Below, piece by piece: positions 2,717-47,791 of a stretch of DNA of 64,000 nt; the first letter of the stretch is position 1, and every line of letters begins with the position of its first letter. The notes under the pieces were generated by a model, which saw nothing but the letters and a program-made list of their open reading frames with translations, did not search any database and was not told the origin of the DNA. This stretch comes from Candidatus Dormiibacterota bacterium (GTDB taxonomy: Bacteria > Chloroflexota > Dormibacteria > Aeolococcales > Bog-877). The stretch is from contig DATLRH010000005.1 in NCBI GenBank assembly GCA_035534755.1, positions 83,881 to 147,880 on the forward strand. The letters are read 5' to 3'. Position numbers and translations under genes: made by a program.

Positions 2717-3223
2717 GTGTCGTCGAGGCGTCCTGATCCTGAAGCAGAAGCGCTGGCCGAGCGCTGGGTCGGCCTGTACGGGGATCTAGCCTTGCGAACC
2801 GCCTACCTATTCCTTCGCGATCAGGGTCTTGCCGAGGACTGCGTCCAGGACGCCTTCGTGAGCGCGTGGCGGGCCCGCTCCAGCCTGCGCGACCCCGGGG
2901 CCGAACGCGCTTGGCTGATGACGATCGTGGCCAACACTGCCCGCTCACACCTCCGCCGCCGGATCCCCATCCCAACCGACACCCTCCCCGCTGATCCCTC
3001 CACTCACGACCCGTTCGACGAGCTGGCCCTTTCGGCCGACCTGGGACTGGCACTGGACCAGCTGCCGTCCGACCAGCGCGAGGTGATCGTGCTTCGGGTC
3101 TACCTCGATCTCTCGGTCGAGGAAACCGCCCGCGCCCTCAGAGTGGCCGAGGGTACTGTGAAGTCCCGACTAAGCCGCGCCTTGGAGGCCCTTCGCCTGA
3201 TATGGACCCCGACGACCGACTGA
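2717..3223 (+). CDS. ECF (sigma-70 family) RNA polymerase sigma factor
   Basis: Region 2 (DCVQDAFVSAWRA) and region 4 HTH (LDLSVEETARALRVAEGTVKSRLSRA); GTG start. Confidence 0.8.
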   Translation: MSSRRPDPEAEALAERWVGLYGDLALRTAYLFLRDQGLAEDCVQDAFVSAWRARSSLRDPGAERAWLMTIVANTARSHLRRRIPIPTDTLPADPSTHDPFDELALSADLGLALDQLPSDQREVIVLRVYLDLSVEETARALRVAEGTVKSRLSRALEALRLIWTPTTD

Positions 3224-18149: not shown

Positions 18150-18223
<74 letters not shown>

Positions 18224-18272
18224 CGCCTTCGCCGGGGGCCCAGTCTACCGAACGTCAGAACCGCCTCCTTCC

Positions 18273-38111: not shown

Positions 38112-38483
38112 TCAGTAGAGACCCAGCTCCAGCTTGGCCTCATCGGAGGCCATCGTGTGCGGGTCCCACGGCGGGTCCCAGATCAGGTCGACCTTGACGT
38201 CCCGGATCCCGGGTAGGAACTGAGTGGCGGAGTGAACCTGGGACTCCAGCATGGGTCCCATCGGGCAGTAGGGAGTTGTCAGGGTCATCGAGACTACCGC
38301 GTCGCCATCCCGGTCCACCACAACCCGGTAGACCAGCCCCAGGCTGACGATGTCCAACCCCAGCTCGGGATCGATCACCTCGCGCAGTGCTTCGCGGATA
38401 TCGTCGCCAGTCGCGATCGGGCCGGAGGCCGGCTGCACCGCTGTATTGGTCGCTACTGTTTGGTCGATCTCTGGTTCAGCCAT
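38112..38483 (-). CDS. sufT: SUF system Fe-S assembly protein SufT (DUF59/MIP18 family)
   Basis: IREALREVIDPELGLDIVSLGLVY...TLTTPYCPM DUF59 signature; last gene of the suf operon. Confidence 0.7.
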   Translation of the reverse strand: MAEPEIDQTVATNTAVQPASGPIATGDDIREALREVIDPELGLDIVSLGLVYRVVVDRDGDAVVSMTLTTPYCPMGPMLESQVHSATQFLPGIRDVKVDLIWDPPWDPHTMASDEAKLELGLY

Positions 38484-38949
38484 GGTCTCTCCCATCCGGG
38501 CTCTCCAGCTGAGTAAGCCCCGCCTCGAGCGCGTTCCAGGGAAGCATCGCGCACTTGACCCTGGCCGCGTAGCGGCGCACCCCGGCCAGTGCCTCAAGGT
38601 CGCCGATCTCCCCCACCGCGGCTGGGTCGCGGCCGTCCAGCAGCATGGCCCGAAAGCGCGTGATCAGCTCCTTGGTCGCGGCCACGGTCCTGCCCTGAAT
38701 CTCCTCGCTCATCATTGAGGCGGAGGCCATCGAGATCGAACATCCCTGACCCTCGAAGCCGACCGCCGCCAGCGCTCCGGCGTCGACTCGCAGGCTCAGA
38801 TCCACCTCATCGCCGCAGAGAGGGTTGTGTCCGTGGGTAGCGACATCGGCCGGGTCCAACAGGCCACGGTGGCGGGGATGCCGGTAGTGGTCCAGGATGA
38901 TCTCCCGGAACAGCTCGTCGTCCATGCCGACGGGATTGAGTTGCGCCAC
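38476..38949 (-). CDS. sufU: SufU/IscU-like Fe-S cluster scaffold (sulfur acceptor)
   Basis: NPLCGDEVDL and ...GCSIS... conserved Cys motifs of SufU; GTG start. Confidence 0.8.
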   Translation of the reverse strand: MAQLNPVGMDDELFREIILDHYRHPRHRGLLDPADVATHGHNPLCGDEVDLSLRVDAGALAAVGFEGQGCSISMASASMMSEEIQGRTVAATKELITRFRAMLLDGRDPAAVGEIGDLEALAGVRRYAARVKCAMLPWNALEAGLTQLESPDGRDHG

Positions 38950-38982
38950 CCGATCATCGTACGCCGACCCAAAATTACGAGC

Positions 38983-39008
38983 GGGGACCGGGGGCGCCCC
39001 CGGTCCCC
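38983..39008 (-). terminator. Perfect 26-nt GC palindrome GGGGACCGGGGGCGCCCCCGGTCCCC followed (minus strand) by a short U tract; terminator/attenuator-like element inside the suf operon
   Basis: Perfect inverted repeat ~35 nt upstream of the sufU start within a 367-bp sufS-sufU gap. Confidence 0.35.
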
Positions 39009-39316
39009 GTCGCTGGGTTTGCGAGATGAGTCCTGCTGACGCGGGACGGCCACGGACCCGGGCTTCAGACCCAGTTCAGGTACCCGTGGTTGACCAGCGC
39101 GTCGAGAGAGTTCAGGTCCCGGCCGCAGTACTCAGTCGTTCCCCAGGATGGTGAGAATCCGTTTGGTACTACCTTCGGGCATGGGCATTCCCTCCTTTTT
39201 CTTGGGGTACCGCCGAGACCGGGATGCGAAGGCTCCCGGCGAGCGGCCGGACGACGCTGTCAGGGCCTAGTTTAGGCCGGACAGCGGTGCCGTGGGAGAC
39301 GGGAGGCTGAATCCGA

Positions 39317-40551
39317 TCAGCTGGCAAAGATCCGATTGGCCTCGCCCAGTGCGGCGACGAGGGCGTCGACATCGTGGCGGTTGTTGTACAGGTAGAAGCT
39401 GGCCCGGGCGGTGGCGGCCACCCGCAGATTCCGCATCAGAGGCTGGCAGCAGTGGTGGCCGGCCCGGATGGCCACCCCGAAGCGGTCGACTATGGTCCCC
39501 ACATCATGGGGATGGACTCCCTCGAGGTTGAACGAAACGATCCCCAGCTGGTCTGCTCCTCGAGGTCCGTAGCGGGTCAGCCCCGGGACCTCGGAGAGCA
39601 TCTCGTCGGCATACTCGGTGAGCTCGACGCCGTGGCGGTAGATGGCCGCCATGCCGACCCTCTCCAGGTAGTCGACGGCCGCCTGAAGCCCCGCCGCTCC
39701 CGCGATGTCGGGCGTTCCGGCCTCGAATTTGTGGGGGATCTCGTCCCAGGTGGTCTTCTCGAGCGTGACCACCGAGATCATCGATCCACCGGTGAGGAAT
39801 GGTGGCATCTCCTCGAGCAGTTCCGGCCGGCCGTAGAGCACCCCGATCCCGGTGGGCCCGCACATCTTGTGGGCGGAGAAGGCGTAGAAGTCGGCATCCA
39901 GGAGCCCGACGTCGACCGGCATGTGCGGCACCGCCTGGGCGCCGTCGACCAACACGGTGATCCCCTCGGCGTGGGCCCGGCCAATCAACTCCGCCACTGG
40001 GTTGATCGTCCCCAGCACATTGCTCACGTGGGTCACCGCCAGCAGCCGGGTAGGTGCCTGCAGAAGACGTTCCGTAGCCTCCCGATCAAGCCGCCCGCTC
40101 CGGTCGACCGGGATGAACTCCAGCTGGCACCCGGTCTGGTCCCGGACCCGCTGCCAGGGAACCAAGTTGGAGTGATGCTCCATCTCGGAGCAGACGATCC
40201 GATCCCCGGGGCCGAGTCGCTCTCGGGCGAAGGCCTGAGCGACCAGGTTAATCGCCTCGGTCGTGTTACGCACGAAAACGACTCCCCGGGGGTCCGCACC
40301 CACCAGGCGAGCCACTGCGGATCTAGCTCCCTCGAAGACTTCAGTCGCCCGCTCGCCCAAGACGTGGACCCCGCGGTGCACGTTGGCGTTGGCATGGGAG
40401 TAGTAGTCGCTGATCGCCTCGATCACGGCCGTCGGCTTTTGGGAGGTGGCAGCGCTGTCCAGATAGACCAGCTCCCGTCCATTGACCCTTTCCTTCAGGA
40501 TCGGGAATTCGGCCCGGACCAAGGCGACGTCCAGGGTCGGAGTCGTCATCA
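39317..40551 (-). CDS. sufS: Cysteine desulfurase SufS
   Basis: Class V aminotransferase fold; PLP-Lys region SAHKMCGPTGIGVLY; catalytic-Cys segment RAGHHCCQPLM; start placed at MTTPTLDVALVRAEFPIL. Confidence 0.85.
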
Positions 40552-40878
40552 CAGTTCTTCCTCGCTGAGCGCCACCCACAGCTCGCCACCGCGGACCTCC
40601 ACTCGGTGGACTCGCACCGGCTCGACCGCCGGGAGCCCAATCGGCTCGCCGGTCTCGAGGTCGAACTGGCTGCCGTGAAGGGGGCACTCGATGGCACAGT
40701 TCTTGGGGTGGAGCTCCCCTTCGGAGAGCGAGGCCATGGCGTGGCTGCAGGTGTCGTCGAGACAGTGGAAGGCACCGTCCACGTTGAACACCGCGATCGG
40801 CAGCTCACCGACCTCAACCCGCGCGGCGTGGCCCGGCGGGATGGCGGCGGCGTCGCAGATCTGAATCCACTCCCCCAT
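40549..40878 (-). CDS. Rieske [2Fe-2S] ferredoxin-like protein in the suf operon
   Basis: CSH...CPLHG Rieske motifs (DDTCSHAMASL...CAIECPLHGSQF). Confidence 0.75.
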   Translation of the reverse strand: MGEWIQICDAAAIPPGHAARVEVGELPIAVFNVDGAFHCLDDTCSHAMASLSEGELHPKNCAIECPLHGSQFDLETGEPIGLPAVEPVRVHRVEVRGGELWVALSEEEL

Positions 40879-42242
40879 CAGGCAGAGCGGCTGGGCTCGG
40901 CCAGCGCCCCCGAGTGGGCGAGCGTCTCCAAGCCAGCCAGCACCCGCCCTCGGGAGACCTCCCTAATCACACCCTCGGGAAGAGCGTCGACAACGTCGGC
41001 GAAGAATCCCTCGACGATCAGCCGGCGCGCCTGCTGGCGCTCAATCCCCCGGCTCTCGCAGTAGAAGAGCTGGTTGTCGTCGATGCGCCCGGCGGTCGAG
41101 CCGTGCGTGCAGCGCACGTCGTTGGCGAGAATCTCCAGCGTGGGATTGCTGTCGGCTTTGGCCTGGGGGCTTAGCAGCAGGTTGCGGTTCTGCACATACG
41201 CGTTGGTCTTCTGCGCTCCCTCTTCGACCCGGATCAGCCCGGCGTAGACGGACCGCGAGCGGTCCGCCACCGCTACCCGGTGAAGGAGGTCGCTGGTCGC
41301 TCCCGGGGCCACGTGGTCTTGCAAGGTTTGCAGGTCGTGGTGCTGCCGCTGTCGACCGACGCAGAGACCGACCATGCGGGTGCTCGAGCCCTCGCCCAAC
41401 ATGAACGTCTCGACGTACGCCTTCTGCCAGGCGCCCCCGAGCATGTTCCAGCGCGCCTCGTAGCAGGCCTCCTGTCCGACTTTGGCCCGGATGGTGGACT
41501 GGACCACGGTCTGGTCCCCACAGCCCTGAAGGATCACGTGGGTGAGGTGTGCCCCCCGGGCGAGCTCCACCTCGGCCACCGGGCTCAGCAGTGAGGCGTC
41601 TCCGTCTGGGGAGATCCACTCCTCGACCAGGGTGAGCCTCGCTCCCTCCTCGAGCTTGACCAGGGTCCGGGGAAAGCTGGCACTGCCGCGACTGACCCCG
41701 TGCAGGAGCCGGACATAACCCTGGGGTTGCTGGCCCCGACCGACATGAACGCAAGCCCCCCCCCGGGTGGCGACGGTGTTCAGCGAGACCCACTTGCGCA
41801 GCCCCGGGGGGGCCACGTTCCCGGCGAGCGCCTGCCAGGTATCGGATTCGGCCGCGAGCCCGGCGGCAAGGGTGAGTGCGAGCTGAGCGCCGGCCGTGCC
41901 GGCGGACGTCCCTGGCGTCGGGAGGTTGCCCGTTTCATCGGAGACGATCGTGGCGGCCACGTCTCCTTTCGCGATCGGTCCTAGGAGGGCGGCGAGCAGA
42001 TACGACGGGGGTTCACCGGACTCGAGCGGCAGTGGCTCCGAGAAACTGGCGGGATCGAGCCGGTCGATCTGGGGGGTACGCCGCCAGTCCTCGTCCCGGC
42101 CAGACGACGGCCAGGGCGCTTCCCGGTAGGCGGCGAGCGCCGCCTCGCGAAGCTCCGCAAACCAGACCGGATCGCCGCCGGCCAGTGCGACTGCGGTTGC
42201 CTCCTCCCGGGTCAGCCGGTAAGCATGAGCGGTCTCGGCCAA
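40878..42242 (-). CDS. sufD: Fe-S cluster assembly protein SufD
   Basis: Conserved SufD C-terminal region ...VRCTHGSTAGRIDDNQLFYCESRGI... Confidence 0.85.
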   Translation of the reverse strand: MAETAHAYRLTREEATAVALAGGDPVWFAELREAALAAYREAPWPSSGRDEDWRRTPQIDRLDPASFSEPLPLESGEPPSYLLAALLGPIAKGDVAATIVSDETGNLPTPGTSAGTAGAQLALTLAAGLAAESDTWQALAGNVAPPGLRKWVSLNTVATRGGACVHVGRGQQPQGYVRLLHGVSRGSASFPRTLVKLEEGARLTLVEEWISPDGDASLLSPVAEVELARGAHLTHVILQGCGDQTVVQSTIRAKVGQEACYEARWNMLGGAWQKAYVETFMLGEGSSTRMVGLCVGRQRQHHDLQTLQDHVAPGATSDLLHRVAVADRSRSVYAGLIRVEEGAQKTNAYVQNRNLLLSPQAKADSNPTLEILANDVRCTHGSTAGRIDDNQLFYCESRGIERQQARRLIVEGFFADVVDALPEGVIREVSRGRVLAGLETLAHSGALAEPSRSA

Positions 42243-42287: not shown

Positions 42288-43688
42288 TCACCCGACGCTG
42301 CCCTCCATCTGCAGGGAGATCAGCCGGTTCAGCTCGAGGGCGTACTCCATGGGAAGCTCCTTGACGAAGGGCTCGATGAAGCCGTTCACGATCATCGCGG
42401 TCGCCTCCTGCTCGGAGATCCCTCTCGATTGCAGGTAGAAGAGCTGCTCGTCGCCCACCTTGCTCACGGTCGCCTCGTGGCCTATCTGGACGTCCTGAGC
42501 CTCGACGTCCATGTAGGGGTAGGTGTCGCTGCGAGCCTGCTCGTCGAGCAGCAATGCATCGCAGCGAACGCTGGACTTTACCCCATGGGCCTTGGGGTAG
42601 ACCTTCAGGTGCCCGCGATACGAGGTCCTCCCGCTCCCCTTGCTGACCGACTTGCTGACAATCGTGCTGGTGGTGTTGGGGGCGACATGGATCACCTTGG
42701 CGCCGGCGTCCTGGTGCTGGCCGTCCCCGGCGAAGGCCACCGAGAGAACCTCTCCGTGGGCGCCTTCACCCATGAGGTAAATGGAGGGGTACTTCATGGT
42801 CACCTTGCTGCCCAGGTTTCCGTCGATCCACTCGACGACCGCGTGCTCTTTCGCGATCGCGCGCTTGGTCACCAAGTTGTAGACATTGTTGGACCAGTTC
42901 TGAATCGTCGTGTAGCGCACGTGGGAGTTGGGCATAGCAATGATCTCCACCACCGCCGAGTGGAGTGAGTCCTTGCTGTATGTGGGCGCCGTGCAGCCCT
43001 CGATGTAGTGGACGAAGCTGCCTTCCTCGGCAATGATCAGCGTGCGCTCGAACTGGCCCATGCTCTCGGTGTTGATCCGGAAATAGGCCTGGAGCGGGAT
43101 CTCCACGCGGACCCCCTTGGGGACGTAGACAAAAGAGCCCCCCGACCAGACCGCCGAGTTGAGCGCAGCGAACTTGTTGTCATTAGGGGGGATCACGGTG
43201 CCGAAGTACTTGCGGAAGATCTCCGGATGCTCGCGCAACCCGGTGTCGCAGTCACAAAAGAGAACGCCCTGCTTCTCCAGGTCTTCTCGGATCGAGTGGT
43301 AGACGACCTCGCTTTCGTACTGGGCAGATACTCCGGCCAGGAACTTGCGCTCGGCTTCAGGGATGCCGAGCCGGTCAAAGGTGCGCTTAATCCCCTCCGG
43401 GACCTCGTCCCAGGTCCGGCCCTGCTCCTCGGCCGGCCTGACGTAGTAGTAGATTTCGTCGAAGTCGATTCCGCTCAGGTCGGCTCCCCAGCTCGGCATC
43501 GGGCGCTGCCGGAAGTGCTCGAGCGCCTTGAGCCGGAACTCCAGCATCCAGGCCGGCTCTGACTTGCGTCGCGAGATGTCGGCCACCACCTCGGGGGAGA
43601 GGCCACGCTCGCTCCGAAACACGAACTCGTCCCCGTCGTTGAAACCGAACTTGTAGTCCTTGGTCAGGTCCTTCGCGGCGACTGCCAT
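42288..43688 (-). CDS. sufB: Fe-S cluster assembly protein SufB
   Basis: 466 aa; highly conserved SufB core (...[28 protein letters not shown]...[19 protein letters not shown]...). Confidence 0.9.
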
Positions 43689-43756: not shown

Positions 43757-44545
43757 CTAGGCCGCGGACGCGTCGTTCACTTCCAATCCCGCCTGGCGAA
43801 GCATGGGGTCGTACCCGTCCTTCTCGATCTGGTTCACCAGCTCACTCCCCCCCGAGGCGATGACCCTTCCGGCGGCCATCACATGGACCCGGTCGGGTTT
43901 GATGTAGTCCAGGATCCGCTGGTAGTGGGTGATGATCAAGACGCCCATACCCTGGCTGCGCACCCGGTTGACGCCCTCGGCTACGGTCCGAAGAGCGTCC
44001 ACGTCGAGGCCGCTGTCGGTCTCGTCCAGGATCGCCATTTCGGGTCTGAGCACCGCGAGCTGGACAATCTCCATCCGCTTCTTCTCTCCCCCGGAGAAGT
44101 TGTCGTTGATATAGCGCGACATGAAGGCCTGGTCCATCTTGAGCGCACTCATCTGATCGCGGACCAACTTGAGGAACTCCCGGGCCGGCAGGGACTTGCC
44201 CTGACCCTTGAGCGCCGCCCGGAGGAAGTTGACCGTGGTCACCCCGGGGATCGCGGTCGGGTACTGGAGACTCAGGAAAAGTCCCATCCGGGCTCGGTCC
44301 TCAGGGAGCTTGCCCAGCAGGCTCTGGTCCTTCCAGAGAATCTCGCCAGCGGTCACCTGGTACTTGGGATGACCCATAACGGCGTATCCGAGGCTGGTCT
44401 TGCCCGCGCCGTTGGGACCCATCAGCGCGTGCACCTCTCCCTGGGGCACGGCCAGGCTAACACCGGCGAGAATTCGCTTCCCATCGACGGCGACTTCCAG
44501 ATCGCGAATCTCAAGCGTGGCGCCGGCGGCGGTCGCTTCAGACAT
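43757..44545 (-). CDS. sufC: Fe-S cluster assembly ATPase SufC
   Basis: Walker A GPNGAGKTSLG, ABC signature FSGGEKKRMEIVQL, Walker B AILDETDSGLDVDA. Confidence 0.9.
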   Translation of the reverse strand: MSEATAAGATLEIRDLEVAVDGKRILAGVSLAVPQGEVHALMGPNGAGKTSLGYAVMGHPKYQVTAGEILWKDQSLLGKLPEDRARMGLFLSLQYPTAIPGVTTVNFLRAALKGQGKSLPAREFLKLVRDQMSALKMDQAFMSRYINDNFSGGEKKRMEIVQLAVLRPEMAILDETDSGLDVDALRTVAEGVNRVRSQGMGVLIITHYQRILDYIKPDRVHVMAAGRVIASGGSELVNQIEKDGYDPMLRQAGLEVNDASAA

Positions 44546-45023
44546 GCGCGGGCTGCCCCAGCTCGCGGCTAAAGGGGAGGCTCGCGACCGGGCACTCCGG
44601 GTCCAGGAACCCCGGCTCACGCAACATGTCCGCGAGCGTGGTTCCCCCCAGTACCTGCTGGACCGCGTGCTGGAGCCTTCCCCAGAGAGGCCGGCTGAGG
44701 CACTCAGGCTCCCTGGAGCAGGCCCCTGACTGGTAGTTTTCAGCCAAGCACTCGACCGGGGCCACCGGTCCTTCCATGAGCTCTACGATCTCAAGAACTG
44801 TCACATCCTGGGGGGTCCGGGCGAGCCTGTACCCACCGTGCAATCCGCGGGTGCCCTCGACCAGCCGGGCGCGGCGCAGCGGCGCAATCAGCTGCTCCAG
44901 GTAGGCCAGGGGCATTCCCTCTCGCCGGGCGATCTCGGCCAGGCTCAGGGGCGGCCCTCCGTGCCCCTTGGCTAGTTCGGTCATCATCCGGAGCCCGTAG
45001 TGGGCCCGGGACGAGATCCGCAT
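44538..45023 (-). CDS. Rrf2 family transcriptional regulator (IscR/SufR-like, Cys-cluster type)
   Basis: MRISSRAHYGLRMMTELA N-terminal wHTH; Cys cluster ECLAENYQSGACSREPEC consistent with an Fe-S-binding Rrf2; overlaps the sufC start. Confidence 0.75.
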   Translation of the reverse strand: MRISSRAHYGLRMMTELAKGHGGPPLSLAEIARREGMPLAYLEQLIAPLRRARLVEGTRGLHGGYRLARTPQDVTVLEIVELMEGPVAPVECLAENYQSGACSREPECLSRPLWGRLQHAVQQVLGGTTLADMLREPGFLDPECPVASLPFSRELGQPAHV

Positions 45024-45149
45024 CGCGACCGGGGTCGGGCCGATAAATCCGACTGGCACGCAGCCATTTTAGGCGCCGGGCCCGAGTCCCGGCCCACTGG
45101 AAGGGGAAGCCGGTCTCCTGCCAGGCCGCGACGGCGTGCCTACTTGGGG

Positions 45150-46677: not shown

Positions 46678-46744
46678 CTCTTCCTCCCCTCGAGTATACC
46701 CAGGCTGGCTGAGATCAGACTGAGCTGAGCCCGGCCGGCCGGGC

Positions 46745-47791
46745 TCAGCTGGGAAGGCGCTCCAGCACGGCGGCGGTGAACTCTTCGGTTCGGGCGTGTC
46801 CACCCAGGTCAGCGGTGCGGACTCCATCGAACACCGCGGCCATGGTGCCCTCCCGCACCTTGCCACCGAAGTCGACCAGGAACGGGTCGGAGGTGTGCTC
46901 CAGCAGCGCCGCGGCGGCCAGGATCATGGCCATCGGGTTAGCGATGTGCCGCCCCTGCAGAGCGGGAGCTGTTCCGTGGGGAGCCTCCGCCATGAGCAGA
47001 TTGGGCCGACTTGACTCGTCAAATCCGATCAGCAGCGACTCGCTCCCCGCCAGGGTGCCGTAAAGGGCGAGGACCAGGTCGGAGAGGATGTCGCCGTCGC
47101 GGTTCAGCGCCGGGATCACCAGCCGGTCGTCCCGGGTGAGGATCAAGGCGAAGGTCGCGTCGATCAGTTGAGGCTCGTAGCGGACTGCAGGATGGCGTCC
47201 ACTCGCGGCATCCATCTCTTCCTTGAGCATCCCCTCGTAGACCCGCGAAACCGTGAACTTCGGACCCCCGAAAACAGTCGCCCCAGTGCGACCCGCCTCC
47301 ACGAAGGCGTACTCAGCGACCCGCCGACAGTGCTCCCGGCTGATCTTGGTGGTGCGGAAGGAAAGCTCGTTGGCACCTTCCCCTTGCCTCCACTCCAGGG
47401 CCCCATAGGCGTCGTCCACAGCCATGCGGACCACGGTGATGGGGGAATGGACCCCCCCCAGCGGGGCGACCCCGGGGATGCGTCGCCCAGTGCGGACGAT
47501 GACGTCTCCGCCGACCTCGGCGCGGAGGATGGCGTTCGGGCTCTCGATCTGACCGATCCCCTCAGGCGTGACGGTCGCCGCCTTGAGCCCGAAGTGGCTA
47601 GCACACATCATCTGAGCCGCCTGGTGAACCACCTGGTTGGCGCTCGCCTGGCGCGACTGGAGGCTGAGGTCGACATGCTCCAGGGTCAACCGCGAGGCCA
47701 GCCCGGGCAAGCTCAGGACCCGGAGTGCCTCCACCAGGAGCTCCTCGCCGGTCTGATCCCCGTGCAGGACCGTGATTGTGGGACGAGCCAC
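46745..47791 (-). CDS. Isocitrate/isopropylmalate dehydrogenase family protein
   Basis: NRDGDILSDLVLALYGTLAGSESL matches the N[LR]xGDIxSD family signature; 348 aa. Confidence 0.7.
   Translation of the reverse strand: MARPTITVLHGDQTGEELLVEALRVLSLPGLASRLTLEHVDLSLQSRQASANQVVHQAAQMMCASHFGLKAATVTPEGIGQIESPNAILRAEVGGDVIVRTGRRIPGVAPLGGVHSPITVVRMAVDDAYGALEWRQGEGANELSFRTTKISREHCRRVAEYAFVEAGRTGATVFGGPKFTVSRVYEGMLKEEMDAASGRHPAVRYEPQLIDATFALILTRDDRLVIPALNRDGDILSDLVLALYGTLAGSESLLIGFDESSRPNLLMAEAPHGTAPALQGRHIANPMAMILAAAALLEHTSDPFLVDFGGKVREGTMAAVFDGVRTADLGGHARTEEFTAAVLERLPS

What the first reader, a model, noticed from the sequence alone, without database searches (positions are those of the whole stretch)
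38950..39316. 367-bp structured gap inside the suf operon between sufS and sufU
All other suf genes in the operon are tightly packed or overlapping. sufS and sufU, however, are separated by 367 bp. The gap contains a perfect 26-nt GC palindrome (38983..39008) followed on the transcribed strand by GCUCGUAAUUUU, which looks like a terminator/attenuator. It also contains a strong AAAGGAGGGA Shine-Dalgarno (minus strand, ~39180) preceding only a tiny 16-18 codon ORF (MPMPEGSTKRILTILGND). This looks like an internal regulatory element, an sRNA, or a leader peptide. It could decouple sufU-sufT expression from sufCBD-sufS.
Basis: seen in the sequence. Interest (0 to 1): 0.5.

Follow-up and report, generated by a model that had tools for sequence, protein, structure and literature searches.

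The report
Conserved small RNA gene beside sufU
The gap between sufS and sufU holds an apparently undescribed, conserved and folded RNA gene of about 290 bases with a tiny built-in reading frame; it occurs in one group of uncultured soil bacteria (Dormibacterota), always just in front of the iron-sulfur genes sufU-sufT, and what it controls is unknown.

Summary
The gap is 367 bp and contains a perfect GC palindrome, a strong Shine-Dalgarno sequence and a tiny ORF.

The gap is not a loose spacer. About 290 nt of it (window 39261..38971, minus strand) is a conserved unit found in about 25 distinct sequences from a Dormibacterota clade. The unit has these parts, in order:
- a conserved -10-like box;
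- an invariant 5' segment;
- a hairpin (P1) whose stem sequence changes while its pairing is kept;
- an exposed AAAAGGAGG + AUG followed by a 15-16-codon ORF, whose length is kept but whose peptide is not;
- a 140-nt multi-helix domain with compensatory base changes, whose outer helix contains the stop codon;
- a very stable terminal hairpin, which is the palindrome.

The core is as conserved as sufU codon positions 1+2 (82-88% identity), against 53-60% at sufU third positions. It matches no Rfam family.

The unit stays with sufU-sufT through at least eight different upstream contexts. sufU itself has a leaderless-type promoter that also exists in relatives lacking the element.

Best reading: a new, independently transcribed structured RNA whose fold is opened by ribosomes, and whose hairpin separates sufU-sufT from sufCBD-sufS. 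A cis-regulatory leader is the main rival. The function is unproven.

The parts
39269..39274 (-). -10-like box TAAACT of the RNA gene. Relatives have TAGACT, TAGAAT, TAAAAT, TAAGAT or TACACT. It lies 6-7 nt before the invariant 5' segment.
   Evidence: Conserved at the 5' edge of the conserved block, while the sequence upstream of it is not conserved and the upstream genes differ. The promoter role is inferred; the strict sigma-70 scan found nothing.
38971..39261 (-). Predicted RNA transcript, about 291 nt, from the inferred start (G39261) to the end of the T-run after the hairpin.
   Evidence: These are the limits of conservation in alignments A2/A4. The core is 82-88% identical to relatives, against 53-60% at sufU third codon positions. 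The single-sequence fold has z = -2.77.
39253..39259 (-). 5' strand of the candidate long-range pairing P0 (CAGCGTC), inside the invariant segment GACAGCGTCGTCC.
   Evidence: Complementary over 6-7 contiguous positions to the invariant loop GCGCTG in 22 of 22 sequences that include the 5' end. Both strands are nearly invariant, so there is no covariation and the pairing is unproven.
39209..39247 (-). Hairpin P1, with a conserved outer stem and a sequence-variable inner stem and loop.
   Evidence: It folds in all 15 sequences of the close clade that include the 5' end, with different inner-stem sequences, at -21.5 to -27.3 kcal/mol against shuffled means of -14.5 to -19.5. The outer stem shows a C-G to U-A change.
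39189..39200 (-). Shine-Dalgarno sequence AAAAAGGAGGGA in an A-rich, predicted unpaired stretch.
   Evidence: AAAAGGAGG is invariant in all 25 sequences and lies 8 nt before the invariant ATG. It is far stronger than the SDs of the suf genes.
39132..39182 (-). Mini-ORF from the invariant second ATG: 16 codons + TGA (MPEGSTKRILTILGND). An in-frame ATG at 39188 is not conserved.
   Evidence: It has 15 codons in all other lineages and 16 in the window's subclade, and always ends in TGA. The peptides are very different, e.g. MPDSQQPTRTLVSID and MHDQPSSVPTPVSAG. There is no codon periodicity. One copy, L088, is frameshifted.
39010..39152 (-). 3' structured domain (helices P3 and inner hairpins). 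Its outer helix starts in the last four codons and includes the stop codon.
   Evidence: Covariance model R1 scores 166 bits here. Across 24 sequences, 95% of cells are paired and 13 of 36 pairs carry compensatory changes, against 6.5 +/- 1.6 in shuffles (0 of 500 reach the observed value); slid controls pair 33-43%. Fourteen lineage representatives folded singly keep the long outer helix, which starts in the last codons and includes the stop codon, in most cases.
39091..39104 (-). Invariant internal-loop motif CGACGCGCTGGTCA (GGAGGCGCTGRTCA in other lineages). It contains the 3' strand of candidate P0 (39101..39095).
   Evidence: It is among the most conserved blocks across all lineages. It lies a fixed 32-35 nt after the stop codon and is mostly unpaired in the single-sequence folds.
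38982..39009 (-). Terminal hairpin (the 28-nt perfect palindrome), the probable transcript end or terminator. The T-run is at 38974..38971.
   Evidence: A -27 to -37 kcal/mol hairpin sits at this position in every lineage, with unrelated sequences. There are compensatory changes within the clade. In the window the U-run starts 8 nt after the stem, so the terminator scan did not call it.
38947..38961 (-). sufU leaderless-type promoter and start: -10 TACGAT (38961..38956), 6 nt, then GTG (38949..38947), with no SD.
   Evidence: TA[CG]GAT + 6-7 nt + GTG/ATG occurs in all element-bearing loci. TACAAT/TAGGAT + 6-7 nt + ATG/GTG occurs in L012, L016, L017, L020 and L021, which lack the element. This spacing is the most frequent one for TAnnnT before long ORFs in the window.
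38476..38949 (-). sufU (NifU_N), followed by the overlapping sufT (38112..38495).
   Evidence: Pfam E = 1.9e-23. It is always the gene downstream of the element.
39317..40552 (-). sufS (class-V aminotransferase), the upstream neighbour in this genome only.
   Evidence: Pfam E = 1.5e-145. It is adjacent to the element in some lineages and absent from its side in others.

Best explanation
The gap contains a self-contained gene for a structured RNA of about 290 nt. This RNA family has not been described and is restricted to one clade of Candidatus Dormibacterota.

**Shown by the sequence and its relatives:**
- a conserved -10-like box at the 5' edge;
- a hairpin (P1) and a 140-nt multi-helix domain whose pairs are kept through compensatory changes;
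- an exposed, invariant strong ribosome-binding site and AUG;
- an open frame of fixed length (15-16 codons) whose amino acids are free to change;
- a stop codon and last codons that lie inside the outer helix of the 3' domain;
- a very stable hairpin that closes the unit.

**Inferred:**
- The RNA is transcribed from its own promoter and ends at the hairpin.
- Where sufS lies upstream, the same hairpin also ends the sufCBD-Rieske-sufS transcript.
- sufU-sufT are then made from their own leaderless promoter, about 20 nt further on.
- Ribosomes that load on the RBS and run to the UGA must melt the outer helix, and probably also the candidate pairing between the 5' end and the invariant loop. The RNA would thus switch between a folded state and a ribosome-opened state.

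I propose that this translation-gated fold is what the RNA uses to act. The invariant loop GGCGCUGRUC would be exposed or hidden for a partner still to be found. Because the RNA is constantly linked to sufU-sufT, the target is most likely connected with Fe-S cluster assembly. The partner and the output are not known.
For: **Conservation.** Gap-like sequence occurs upstream of sufU in L004-L010 at 77-84% identity. It also occurs in 11 metagenome contigs and in the divergent lineages L100-L112 (nhmmer E 1e-16 to 1e-86; CM 16.8-83 bits). The core is 82-88% identical, against 53-60% at sufU third codon positions and 33-65% in the P1 loop.

**Structure.**
- On A4, 97.7% of cells are paired and 10 of 55 pairs are compensatory, against 3.5 +/- 1.4 in shuffles.
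- On the 24-sequence alignment A7, 95% are paired and 13 of 36 pairs are compensatory, against 6.5 +/- 1.6 (0 of 500 shuffles reach the observed value); slid controls pair 33-43%.
- P1 folds in every lineage with different stem sequences.
- Most of 14 lineage representatives folded singly keep the long outer helix that starts in the last codons and includes the stop codon.

**Own transcription unit.** The -10-like box is conserved while the upstream sequence and genes differ: sufS, an opposite-strand BNR-like + MoaD-like pair, an ABC ATPase, an epimerase, a phosphoesterase, an arylsulfotransferase, or an inversion. A hairpin of -27 to -37 kcal/mol is present in every lineage with unrelated sequences.

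**sufU has its own leaderless-type promoter.** This holds even in relatives lacking the element. The distance from hairpin to sufU varies from about 45 to about 150 nt.

**ORF kept, peptide not.** The frame is 15-16 codons + UGA in 24 of 25 sequences. The peptides are unrelated between lineages, third positions are not freer than the others (diversity 0.08/0.13/0.15 at codon positions 1/2/3), and changes are about as often non-synonymous as expected without selection.

**Stop codon is paired.** The stop-codon helix is 92% paired across the 24 sequences, and the stop-to-loop distance is fixed at 32-35 nt.

**No known family or protein domain.** Rfam 15 gives no match for the window or for divergent copies. 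No Pfam domain is found in any gap ORF on either strand.
Against: - There are no expression data. The promoter, the 3' end and translation of the ORF are all inferred from sequence.
- The strict sigma-70 scan found no promoter, and the terminator scan did not call the hairpin, because its U-run is displaced or weak.
- The unbroken linkage to sufU, on the same strand and immediately upstream, is the classical signature of a cis-regulatory leader rather than of a free-standing sRNA.
- The candidate pairing P0 rests on two nearly invariant blocks. It has no covariation, and a 6-7-nt complementarity among about 60 invariant bases could be chance.
- No target or partner was identified. A duplex search against the sufU 5' end gave nothing interpretable.
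- The covariation counts use structures derived from the same sequences, and A7 is fitted to the model, which favours the structure.
- ORF maintenance alone is weak evidence in GC-rich sequence: by my estimate, about 0.75 probability per lineage of no stop in 13 codons.
Confidence: 0.5

Rival explanations
1. The element is a cis-regulatory 5' leader of sufU-sufT: a riboswitch-like or protein- or ribosome-sensing leader. Transcription starts at the element's promoter. The structured domain senses a signal such as Fe-S or sulfur status, a metabolite, or translation of the mini-ORF. The hairpin then terminates or lets RNA polymerase through. Read-through would either supply sufU-sufT mRNA or occlude the leaderless sufU promoter.
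For: - The element is on the same strand, immediately upstream of sufU-sufT, in every one of about 25 sequences, despite at least eight different upstream contexts.
- It has a conserved structured domain followed directly (3-10 nt) by a strong hairpin with a U-rich tail.
- Rare motifs tied to a single gene are usually read as cis-regulators, e.g. the Fibro-purF motif (abstract of PMC7668255, seen).
Against: - sufU has no SD and has a -10 box at leaderless distance. This arrangement is older than the element, because it also occurs in relatives lacking it.
- The hairpin stays intact in thermodynamic models with or without a ribosome at the stop codon in 12 of 13 representatives; L108 failed, probably because of my hairpin delimitation. 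No conserved antiterminator was found, and the candidate pairings seen in the window are absent in L104/L108 and L010 (and direct inspection of the sequences).
- The hairpin-to-sufU distance is not conserved: L106 and L112 carry about 100 extra nt.
- The strong RBS and ORF inside the 'aptamer' are unusual for a riboswitch.
Confidence: 0.28
2. The element is a gene for a functional 15-16-residue micropeptide. The conserved RNA downstream would be only a structured 3' UTR and terminator.
For: - The strong SD is invariant and at optimal spacing, and the AUG and UGA are invariant.
- The frame length is kept, and the only indel is 3 nt.
Against: - The peptide sequences of different lineages share almost nothing beyond M-[PH]-[DE].
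- Close pairs differ mostly by non-synonymous changes: L104/L108 and L106/L112 (sequences).
- Within the close clade, synonymous sites are as constrained as the others (0.15 diversity, against about 0.42 at sufU third positions). The constraint is therefore on the RNA.
- The 3' domain is more conserved than the ORF.
Confidence: 0.07
3. The element is a housekeeping or protein-binding RNA of this phylum that current covariance models do not recognise, such as a 6S-like or other RNA-polymerase-, ribosome- or chaperone-binding RNA. It would sit next to sufU only by inherited synteny.
For: - It has its own promoter-like box and terminal hairpin, a size of about 290 nt, and strong sequence and structure conservation.
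- It is a single copy in the 64-kb window and in each locus of about 6-14 kb.
Against: - It is absent from the sufU region of other Dormibacterota (L012-L022). Presence elsewhere in those genomes could not be tested.
- No Rfam match, even a weak one, to 6S, SRP, tmRNA or RNase P.
- The architecture (RBS + ORF, asymmetric internal loop) is unlike 6S.
- The linkage to sufU persists through many rearrangements.
Confidence: 0.1
4. The gap is an ordinary spacer: merely the terminator of the sufS transcript, plus neutral sequence or the remnant of a lost gene or mobile element.
For: - The spacing between sufS and sufU is very variable in this phylum, and other genes have been inserted there.
- GC-rich DNA forms many hairpins and open frames by chance.
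Against: - The gap is as conserved as non-synonymous sites, and far more conserved than sufU third positions.
- There are compensatory changes in several helices.
- It is retained when sufS is not upstream.
- Single-nucleotide indels among homologues exclude any long ORF on either strand, and there is no Pfam hit.
- It is single-copy, so it is not a repeat element.
Confidence: 0.03

Closest known systems
Leader-peptide leaders and attenuators (trpL/hisL type; mgtL in the Salmonella mgtA leader). Named from general knowledge, not from a tool.
   Same: - A short ORF with its own RBS lies inside a structured RNA.
- The ORF overlaps one strand of a helix, so translation remodels the fold.
- A hairpin lies downstream, and the whole unit is on the same strand in front of a gene.
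   Different: - No regulatory-codon enrichment is conserved.
- No alternative antiterminator was found, and the hairpin is very stable.
- The stop codon lies about 130 nt before the hairpin.
- The downstream gene has its own leaderless-type promoter and no SD.
Dual-function sRNAs that also carry a small ORF (SgrS/SgrT, SR1/SR1P, RNAIII/hld). Named from general knowledge.
   Same: An independently transcribed and terminated RNA of a few hundred nt that combines a translated small ORF with conserved RNA structure.
   Different: - In those cases the peptide is conserved and functional; here it is not.
- No base-pairing targets are known here.
- The strict linkage to one downstream gene is atypical for such sRNAs.
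Rare orphan riboswitch candidates tied to one gene in one lineage, e.g. the Fibro-purF motif (PMC7668255, abstract seen).
   Same: - Few representatives and a narrow taxonomic range.
- Found exclusively upstream of one gene family.
- Defined by comparative sequence analysis only.
   Different: - This element carries a strong RBS and ORF inside the structured part.
- It is followed by a separate promoter for the downstream gene.
- No ligand can be guessed from an enzyme product.
Hairpin ('I-shaped') terminators of high-GC Gram-positive bacteria. Named from general knowledge.
   Same: A long GC-rich perfect stem with a poor or displaced U-tract at the end of a transcription unit.
   Different: This describes only one part of the element. 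The other roughly 260 nt are conserved and structured on their own.

Membership tests
Any described RNA family (Rfam 15, 4227 models, including 6S, SRP, tmRNA, RNase P, T-box, riboswitches, raiA) | A covariance-model match at or near the family's gathering score. | tested here: not met
   The only window-wide gathering-score hit is a tRNA at 18151..18224. In 38800..39450 the best hits are microRNA models on the palindrome, at 27 bits against a gathering score of 80. There are no hits at E <= 1 in five divergent loci.
Intrinsic (Rho-independent) terminator | A stable GC-rich stem-loop. | tested here: met
   A 13-14-bp perfect stem in the window. Hairpins of -27 to -37 kcal/mol sit at the same place in 13 lineages, with compensatory changes.
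Intrinsic (Rho-independent) terminator | A U-tract directly after the stem. | tested here: inconclusive
   In the window the UUUU begins 8 nt after the stem, and the consensus scan did not call it. Several relatives have CUUUUG, UUUGU or CUUUUU directly after the stem, while L008 and L112 have almost no U.
Leader-peptide transcription attenuator | A short translated ORF whose position controls alternative terminator and antiterminator pairings. | tested here: not met
   The ORF overlaps helix P3, not the hairpin. The hairpin stays intact in 12 of 13 constrained folds with the ribosome footprint unpaired; the L108 failure is probably an artefact of my hairpin delimitation. No conserved competitor of the hairpin was found.
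Leader-peptide transcription attenuator | The regulated gene depends on read-through, with no promoter of its own between the terminator and the gene. | tested here: not met
   A conserved TA[CG]GAT + 6-7 nt + GTG/ATG without SD lies downstream of the hairpin. The same arrangement occurs in relatives lacking the element. The promoter role is inferred from sequence.
Riboswitch / cis-regulatory leader | A conserved structured domain with covariation. | tested here: met
Riboswitch / cis-regulatory leader | Consistent location upstream of, and on the same strand as, a functionally coherent gene set. | tested here: met
   It is always upstream of sufU-sufT.
Riboswitch / cis-regulatory leader | An expression platform that overlaps the sensing domain, and a ligand. 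| tested here: inconclusive
   No overlap between P3 and the hairpin was detected. The ligand cannot be tested with these tools.
Dual-function sRNA / small protein gene | A peptide sequence under purifying selection. | tested here: not met
   The peptides are unrelated between lineages. There is no third-position excess of change, and close pairs differ mainly by non-synonymous changes.
Dual-function sRNA / small protein gene | Own promoter and terminator (an independent transcript). | not testable with these tools
   Only sequence signals are available: the conserved -10-like box and the terminal hairpin. There are no transcript data.
Leaderless mRNA (for sufU) | A -10 hexamer 6-8 nt upstream of the start codon, and no SD. 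| tested here: met
   TACGAT-GATCGG-GTG in the window. The pattern is conserved in all lineages and in element-free relatives.
Repeat or mobile element (MITE/REP) | Multiple copies per genome. | tested here: not met
   There is one copy in the 64-kb window and one per locus (nhmmer; CM). Two hits in viral contigs were chance matches in coding DNA.

The most novel reading that the evidence does not exclude
The element would be a new class of translation-gated or ligand-sensing regulatory RNA dedicated to Fe-S cluster assembly. Ribosome loading on its built-in mini-ORF, or a bound metabolite or protein, would decide whether the 3' domain and the 5'-end/loop pseudoknot form. This would set either how much transcription runs through the hairpin across the leaderless sufU promoter (promoter occlusion), or whether the invariant loop can act on a partner. 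It would be a regulatory link between translation or sulfur/iron status and SufU-SufT in a phylum without cultured model organisms.
Probability: 0.15. Interest if true: 0.75.

Novelty: new member of a known kind. Interest (0 to 1): 0.55.

Why it matters
- No regulatory RNA has been described for Dormibacterota (AD3), an abundant soil phylum known mainly from metagenome-assembled genomes. My two literature searches on this found nothing.
- I know of no structured RNA tied to sufU-sufT, and a third search found none.
- This element is well defined. It has about 25 sequences, clear boundaries, covariation in several helices, a covariance model that recovers all copies, and an unusual design in which a mini-ORF is threaded through the fold next to a leaderless gene.
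- It can therefore be submitted as a new RNA family. It also gives a concrete handle for studying how Fe-S assembly genes are split into separate transcription units and controlled in this phylum.
- If it proves to be a sensor, it would add a new input to SUF regulation. If it is only a lineage-specific sRNA, it is a modest addition to the catalogue.

Tried and rejected
- **Known RNA families.** Rfam gave nothing, at gathering score over the window, at E-value thresholds over the gap, or over five divergent loci.
- **A missed protein gene.** All gap ORFs of at least 20 aa were listed on both strands. There are no Pfam hits. Single-nucleotide indels among homologues break every long frame, including the antisense frame that looks open in several genomes.
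- **Mobile or repeated element.** The element is single-copy. The arms of the palindrome occur once in the window.
- **Phage origin.** Two matches in viral contigs were chance hits in coding DNA. Three of the 14 metagenome pattern matches were ordinary RBSs of unrelated genes.
- **Alternative pairing of the 5' GUCCGGCCG with CGGCCGGGAC after the ORF.** This appears in the window's minimum-free-energy fold. It is rejected because the partner sequence is absent in L104/L108, while the competing P3 pairing covaries.
- **Pairing between the ORF start and the region before sufU.** RNAalifold proposed it. It is broken in three sequences and has no compensation.
- **An SD-sequestering helix GGAGGG/CUCACC inside the ORF.** It is present in most lineages, but it is weak, interrupted and absent in L104/L108, so it is not relied on.
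- **Complementarity of the RNA 5' end to sufU codons 9-14.** I saw this in the window by eye. It is lost in L004, L005, L104 and L106, so I treat it as coincidence. RNAduplex runs on long sequences gave uninterpretable output.
- **A shared Rrf2 operator between the rrf2 promoter and the element.** Nothing convincing was found. The rrf2 'leaderless' hit is probably a false start, because the conserved N-terminus MRISSRAHYGLR begins 36 nt further on.
- **Literature.** Three searches found nothing on suf-associated RNAs or Dormibacterota ncRNAs.
Full report
**1. What is in the window**

On the minus strand the genes are rrf2, sufC (43757..44620), sufB (42288..43688), sufD (40878..42242), a Rieske-domain gene, sufS (39317..40552), a gap, sufU (38476..38949) and sufT. 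This comes from Pfam and from gene calls on three near-identical soil-metagenome contigs, L001-L003.

- The palindrome is perfect and really spans 28 nt (38982..39009). None of 100 shuffles contained a match.
- It is followed by GCTCGTAATTTT.
- AAAAAGGAGGGA lies at 39200..39189.
- ATGs follow at 39188 and 39182, and an in-frame TGA at 39134..39132.

The sufU start is GTG 38949. That column alternates between GTG and ATG in 17 relatives, whereas the ATG at 38925 used by gene callers is not conserved. The gap is therefore 367 bp.

**2. Where the organism sits, and how the sufS-sufU spacing behaves**

A scan of one genome per species with SufS returned Candidatus Dormibacterota MAGs as the closest relatives.

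- In about 60 loci from Paenibacillus, Chloroflexota, Obscuribacterales and others, sufS and sufU abut, with a gap of -2 to +7 nt.
- In Dormibacterota the spacing is 1-52 nt in some genomes, 380-520 nt in others, and 0.9-3.3 kb in still others.
- In L006 and L007 two opposite-strand genes sit between sufS and sufU: a 362-aa BNR-like protein and a 93-aa MoaD/ThiS-like protein.

**3. The gap sequence is conserved and belongs to sufU, not to sufS**

- BLASTN finds 77-84% identity to the gap, immediately upstream of sufU, in L004-L010 (alignment).
- A metagenome scan with the SD/ATG block gave 11 true copies, all upstream of sufU where the contig allows, plus 3 chance matches.
- SufU homologues of 60-73% identity, located on their contigs, all carry a recognisable but much diverged copy. 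nhmmer gives E 1e-16 to 1e-86, and the covariance model gives 16.8-83 bits.

The upstream neighbour differs from locus to locus:

| Upstream neighbour of the element | Loci |
|---|---|
| sufS | window, L004, L010, L100, L102, L104, L108 |
| BNR-like + MoaD-like genes, opposite strand | L006, L007 |
| ABC ATPase, opposite strand | L084 |
| epimerase | L103 |
| phosphoesterase | L106 |
| arylsulfotransferase | L112 |

In L008 the whole block element-sufU-sufT-bioY is inverted.

Dormibacterota with SufU at or below about 58% identity (L012-L022) lack the element near sufU.

**4. Strength of selection**

Identity between the window and six relatives:

| Region | Identity |
|---|---|
| sufU third codon positions | 53-60% |
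| sufU codon positions 1+2 | 89-90% |
| RNA core | 82-88% |
| P1 inner loop | 33-65% |

For the two most distant in-clade copies the core is 72-73% identical. The element is therefore under purifying selection comparable to that on protein-coding first and second positions.

Single-nucleotide indels among homologues exclude a long ORF on either strand. No gap ORF has a Pfam match.

**5. Anatomy (window coordinates, minus strand)**

a. **-10-like box.** TAAACT lies at 39274..39269, with TAGACT, TAGAAT, TAAGAT or TACACT elsewhere. It is 6-7 nt before the invariant [G/C]ACAGCGY. Upstream of it conservation stops.

b. **P1 hairpin, 39247..39209.** The outer stem is conserved. The inner stem differs in sequence in nearly every lineage, yet it always folds, at -21.5 to -27.3 kcal/mol against shuffled means of -14.5 to -19.5.

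c. **Ribosome-binding site.** An A-rich unpaired stretch holds the invariant AAAAGGAGG, followed by 8 nt and the invariant AUG (39182).

d. **Mini-ORF.** It has 16 codons in the window's subclade and 15 in all others, and always ends in UGA.

e. **3' domain, 39152..39010.** Its outer helices begin in the last four codons and include the stop codon. A large asymmetric internal loop carries the invariant GGAGGCGCUGRUCA (CGACGCGCUGGUCA in the window), always 32-35 nt after the stop. Inner hairpins follow.

f. **Terminal hairpin.** After a 3-10-nt linker comes a -27 to -37 kcal/mol hairpin, which is the palindrome. Its sequence is unrelated between lineages.

g. **sufU promoter and start.** Next come the sufU -10 box and start codon (TACGAT-N6-GTG).

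**6. Evidence for the RNA structure**

| Measure | 17-sequence clade alignment A4 | 24 sequences aligned to model R1, alignment A7 |
|---|---|---|
| Cells forming standard pairs | 97.7% | 95.0% |
| Pairs with compensatory changes | 10 of 55 | 13 of 36 |
| Same in shuffles (mean +/- sd) | 3.5 +/- 1.4 | 6.5 +/- 1.6 |
| Shuffles reaching the observed value | 0 of 500 | 0 of 500 |
| Cells with compensatory changes (observed vs shuffled) | 22 vs 4.2 +/- 1.9 | 40 vs 9.7 |
| Cells paired in slid registers | 36-48% | 33-43% |

In L010 and L092 three consecutive pairs change from CUG/CAG to UCA/UGA.

Caveats: the structures were derived from these same sequences, and A7 is fitted to the model.

A further pairing, P0, is possible between the 5' CAGCG[U/C][C/A] and the loop [C/G]GCGCUG. 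It gives 6-7 contiguous pairs in 22 of 22 sequences and would make a pseudoknot enclosing P1, the RBS and the ORF. Both strands are nearly invariant, so it is only a hypothesis.

**7. The mini-ORF**

The peptides are MPEGSTKRILTILGND, MPERTKSILTTWGAD, MPDSNKRGLTNWGVD, MPDDSQSILTLGGAG, MPDSQQPTRTLVSID and MHDQPSTILAPVSAG.

- The frame, its length, the SD, the AUG and the UGA are kept. The amino acids are not.
- Within the close clade the three codon positions are about equally constrained (diversity 0.08, 0.13 and 0.15). All are far below the roughly 0.42 seen at sufU third positions.
- Close pairs (L104/L108 and L106/L112) differ mostly by non-synonymous changes.

So a functional micropeptide is unlikely. 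Either the act of translation matters, or the stretch is constrained as RNA. One copy (L088) has a 1-nt deletion; that contig also has a poor SufU match.

**8. sufU is expressed on its own**

- In all element-bearing loci a TA[CG]GAT box lies 6-7 nt before the sufU start codon, and there is no SD.
- The same arrangement (TACAAT or TAGGAT + 6-7 nt + ATG/GTG) precedes sufU in L012, L016, L017, L020 and L021, which lack the element and where the upstream genes are unrelated or opposite.
- In the window, a spacing of 6 nt is the most frequent one between TAnnnT and a start codon that opens an ORF of at least 100 codons.

I therefore infer that sufU-sufT is a leaderless transcription unit, and that this state predates the element. 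The distance between hairpin and sufU is not fixed: L106 and L112 have about 100 extra nt.

**9. Mechanism**

*Shown:* the parts listed above, their conservation and their pairing.

*Inferred:*
- The element is transcribed from its own promoter and ends at the hairpin.
- In genomes like this one, the hairpin also ends the sufCBD-Rieske-sufS transcript.
- sufU-sufT start afresh about 20 nt later.
- A ribosome that initiates at the strong RBS and reaches the UGA would have to open the outer helices of the 3' domain. With a footprint of about 13-15 nt beyond the stop, it would probably also disturb the loop that could pair with the 5' end. The RNA would then alternate between a folded and a ribosome-opened state.

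In constrained folds with the stop region held unpaired, the terminal hairpin stays intact in 12 of 13 representatives. L108 failed both with and without the constraint, which I attribute to my hairpin delimitation. I found no conserved antiterminator. Translation therefore probably does not control termination at this hairpin.

What the folded or opened RNA acts on is unknown. The constant neighbourhood points to sufU-sufT and Fe-S assembly, but that is only guilt by association.

**10. Rivals**

- **Cis-regulatory leader or riboswitch of sufU-sufT (0.28).** This is the main rival. It is favoured by the never-broken, same-strand, immediately-upstream position. It is disfavoured by the separate leaderless promoter, the very stable hairpin without a competitor, the variable distance to sufU, and the internal RBS/ORF. 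A variant in which read-through occludes the leaderless promoter cannot be excluded.
- **An unrecognised housekeeping RNA (0.10).**
- **A micropeptide gene (0.07).**
- **A plain spacer, terminator or gene remnant (0.03).**

**11. Comparison with what is known**

Nothing in Rfam 15 matches the window copy or the divergent copies. Three literature searches found no suf-associated RNA motif and no described Dormibacterota ncRNA.

In design the element resembles three things:
- leader-peptide leaders, because an ORF overlaps a helix;
- dual-function sRNAs, because an RNA gene carries an ORF;
- rare single-gene orphan riboswitch candidates such as Fibro-purF (PMC7668255, abstract).

It fails the defining tests of an attenuator (no alternative pairing, and the downstream gene has its own promoter) and of a peptide-coding dual-function sRNA (the peptide is not conserved). 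I file it as a new family within the known kind 'bacterial structured regulatory RNA'.

**12. Verdict**

The element is real, conserved, structured and apparently undescribed. Its function is open. Interest 0.55: it is a clean new RNA family with an unusual layout in an uncultured phylum, but there are no expression data and no identified target.

Noticed in passing
window 40549..40878 (-): A 109-aa Rieske-domain gene is embedded in the suf operon between sufD and sufS, overlapping both. It is conserved in the related loci (L001, L100, L102, L104, L108).
   Followed up: no
window 38925 vs 38949 (-): Gene callers start sufU at ATG 38925 (149 aa). Comparative evidence (GTG/ATG alternation, the conserved MAQ.NP N-terminus, and a -10 box 6 nt upstream) supports GTG 38949 (157 aa) and a leaderless mRNA.
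   Followed up: yes
window 2004 (+), 23316 (-), 57505 (-): Three further cases of TATCAT + 6-7 nt + ATG opening ORFs of 113-199 aa. They suggest that leaderless genes with a TATCAT -10 box are common in this genome.
   Followed up: no
window 46723..46750: A second 28-nt perfect palindrome, AGCTGAGCCCGGCCGGCCGGGCTCAGCT. It is the only other palindrome of that length in the window.
   Followed up: no
L006 6230..7604 and L007 6244..7620: Between sufS and the RNA element, these relatives carry two opposite-strand genes. One is a 93-aa MoaD/ThiS-like protein ending in GG/GGC (a possible sulfur carrier). The other is a 362-aa BNR/sialidase-like repeat protein.
   Followed up: partly
L008 6700..8600: The whole block RNA element-sufU-sufT-bioY is inverted relative to sufS and gidB. 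This shows that the block moves as a unit.
   Followed up: partly
L106 about 2880..2990 (between the hairpin and sufU): About 100 extra nt, including a direct duplication of GTTTCGTCAGGGCCC and further GC hairpins. L112 has a different insert at the same place.
   Followed up: no
L088 1616..2466: This copy has a 1-nt deletion in the mini-ORF. Its sufU gives only 51% identity by tblastn, although the flanking RNA is close to that of L006. The cause is probably assembly errors or a decaying locus.
   Followed up: no
L009, L011; proteins P0012, P0070, P0082: Contigs and proteins nearly identical to Dormibacterota suf loci are labelled Nanopelagicaceae, Verrucomicrobiia/Verrucomicrobiae or Micrarchaeia in their MAG records. 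This is probably mis-binning.
   Followed up: no
window 45023..45071 (-): The rrf2 gene that heads the suf operon has a TAAAAT box about 36 nt before the conserved start (MRISSRAHYGLR). The short 5' UTR contains GTCGG-N10-CCGAC, a possible operator.
   Followed up: no
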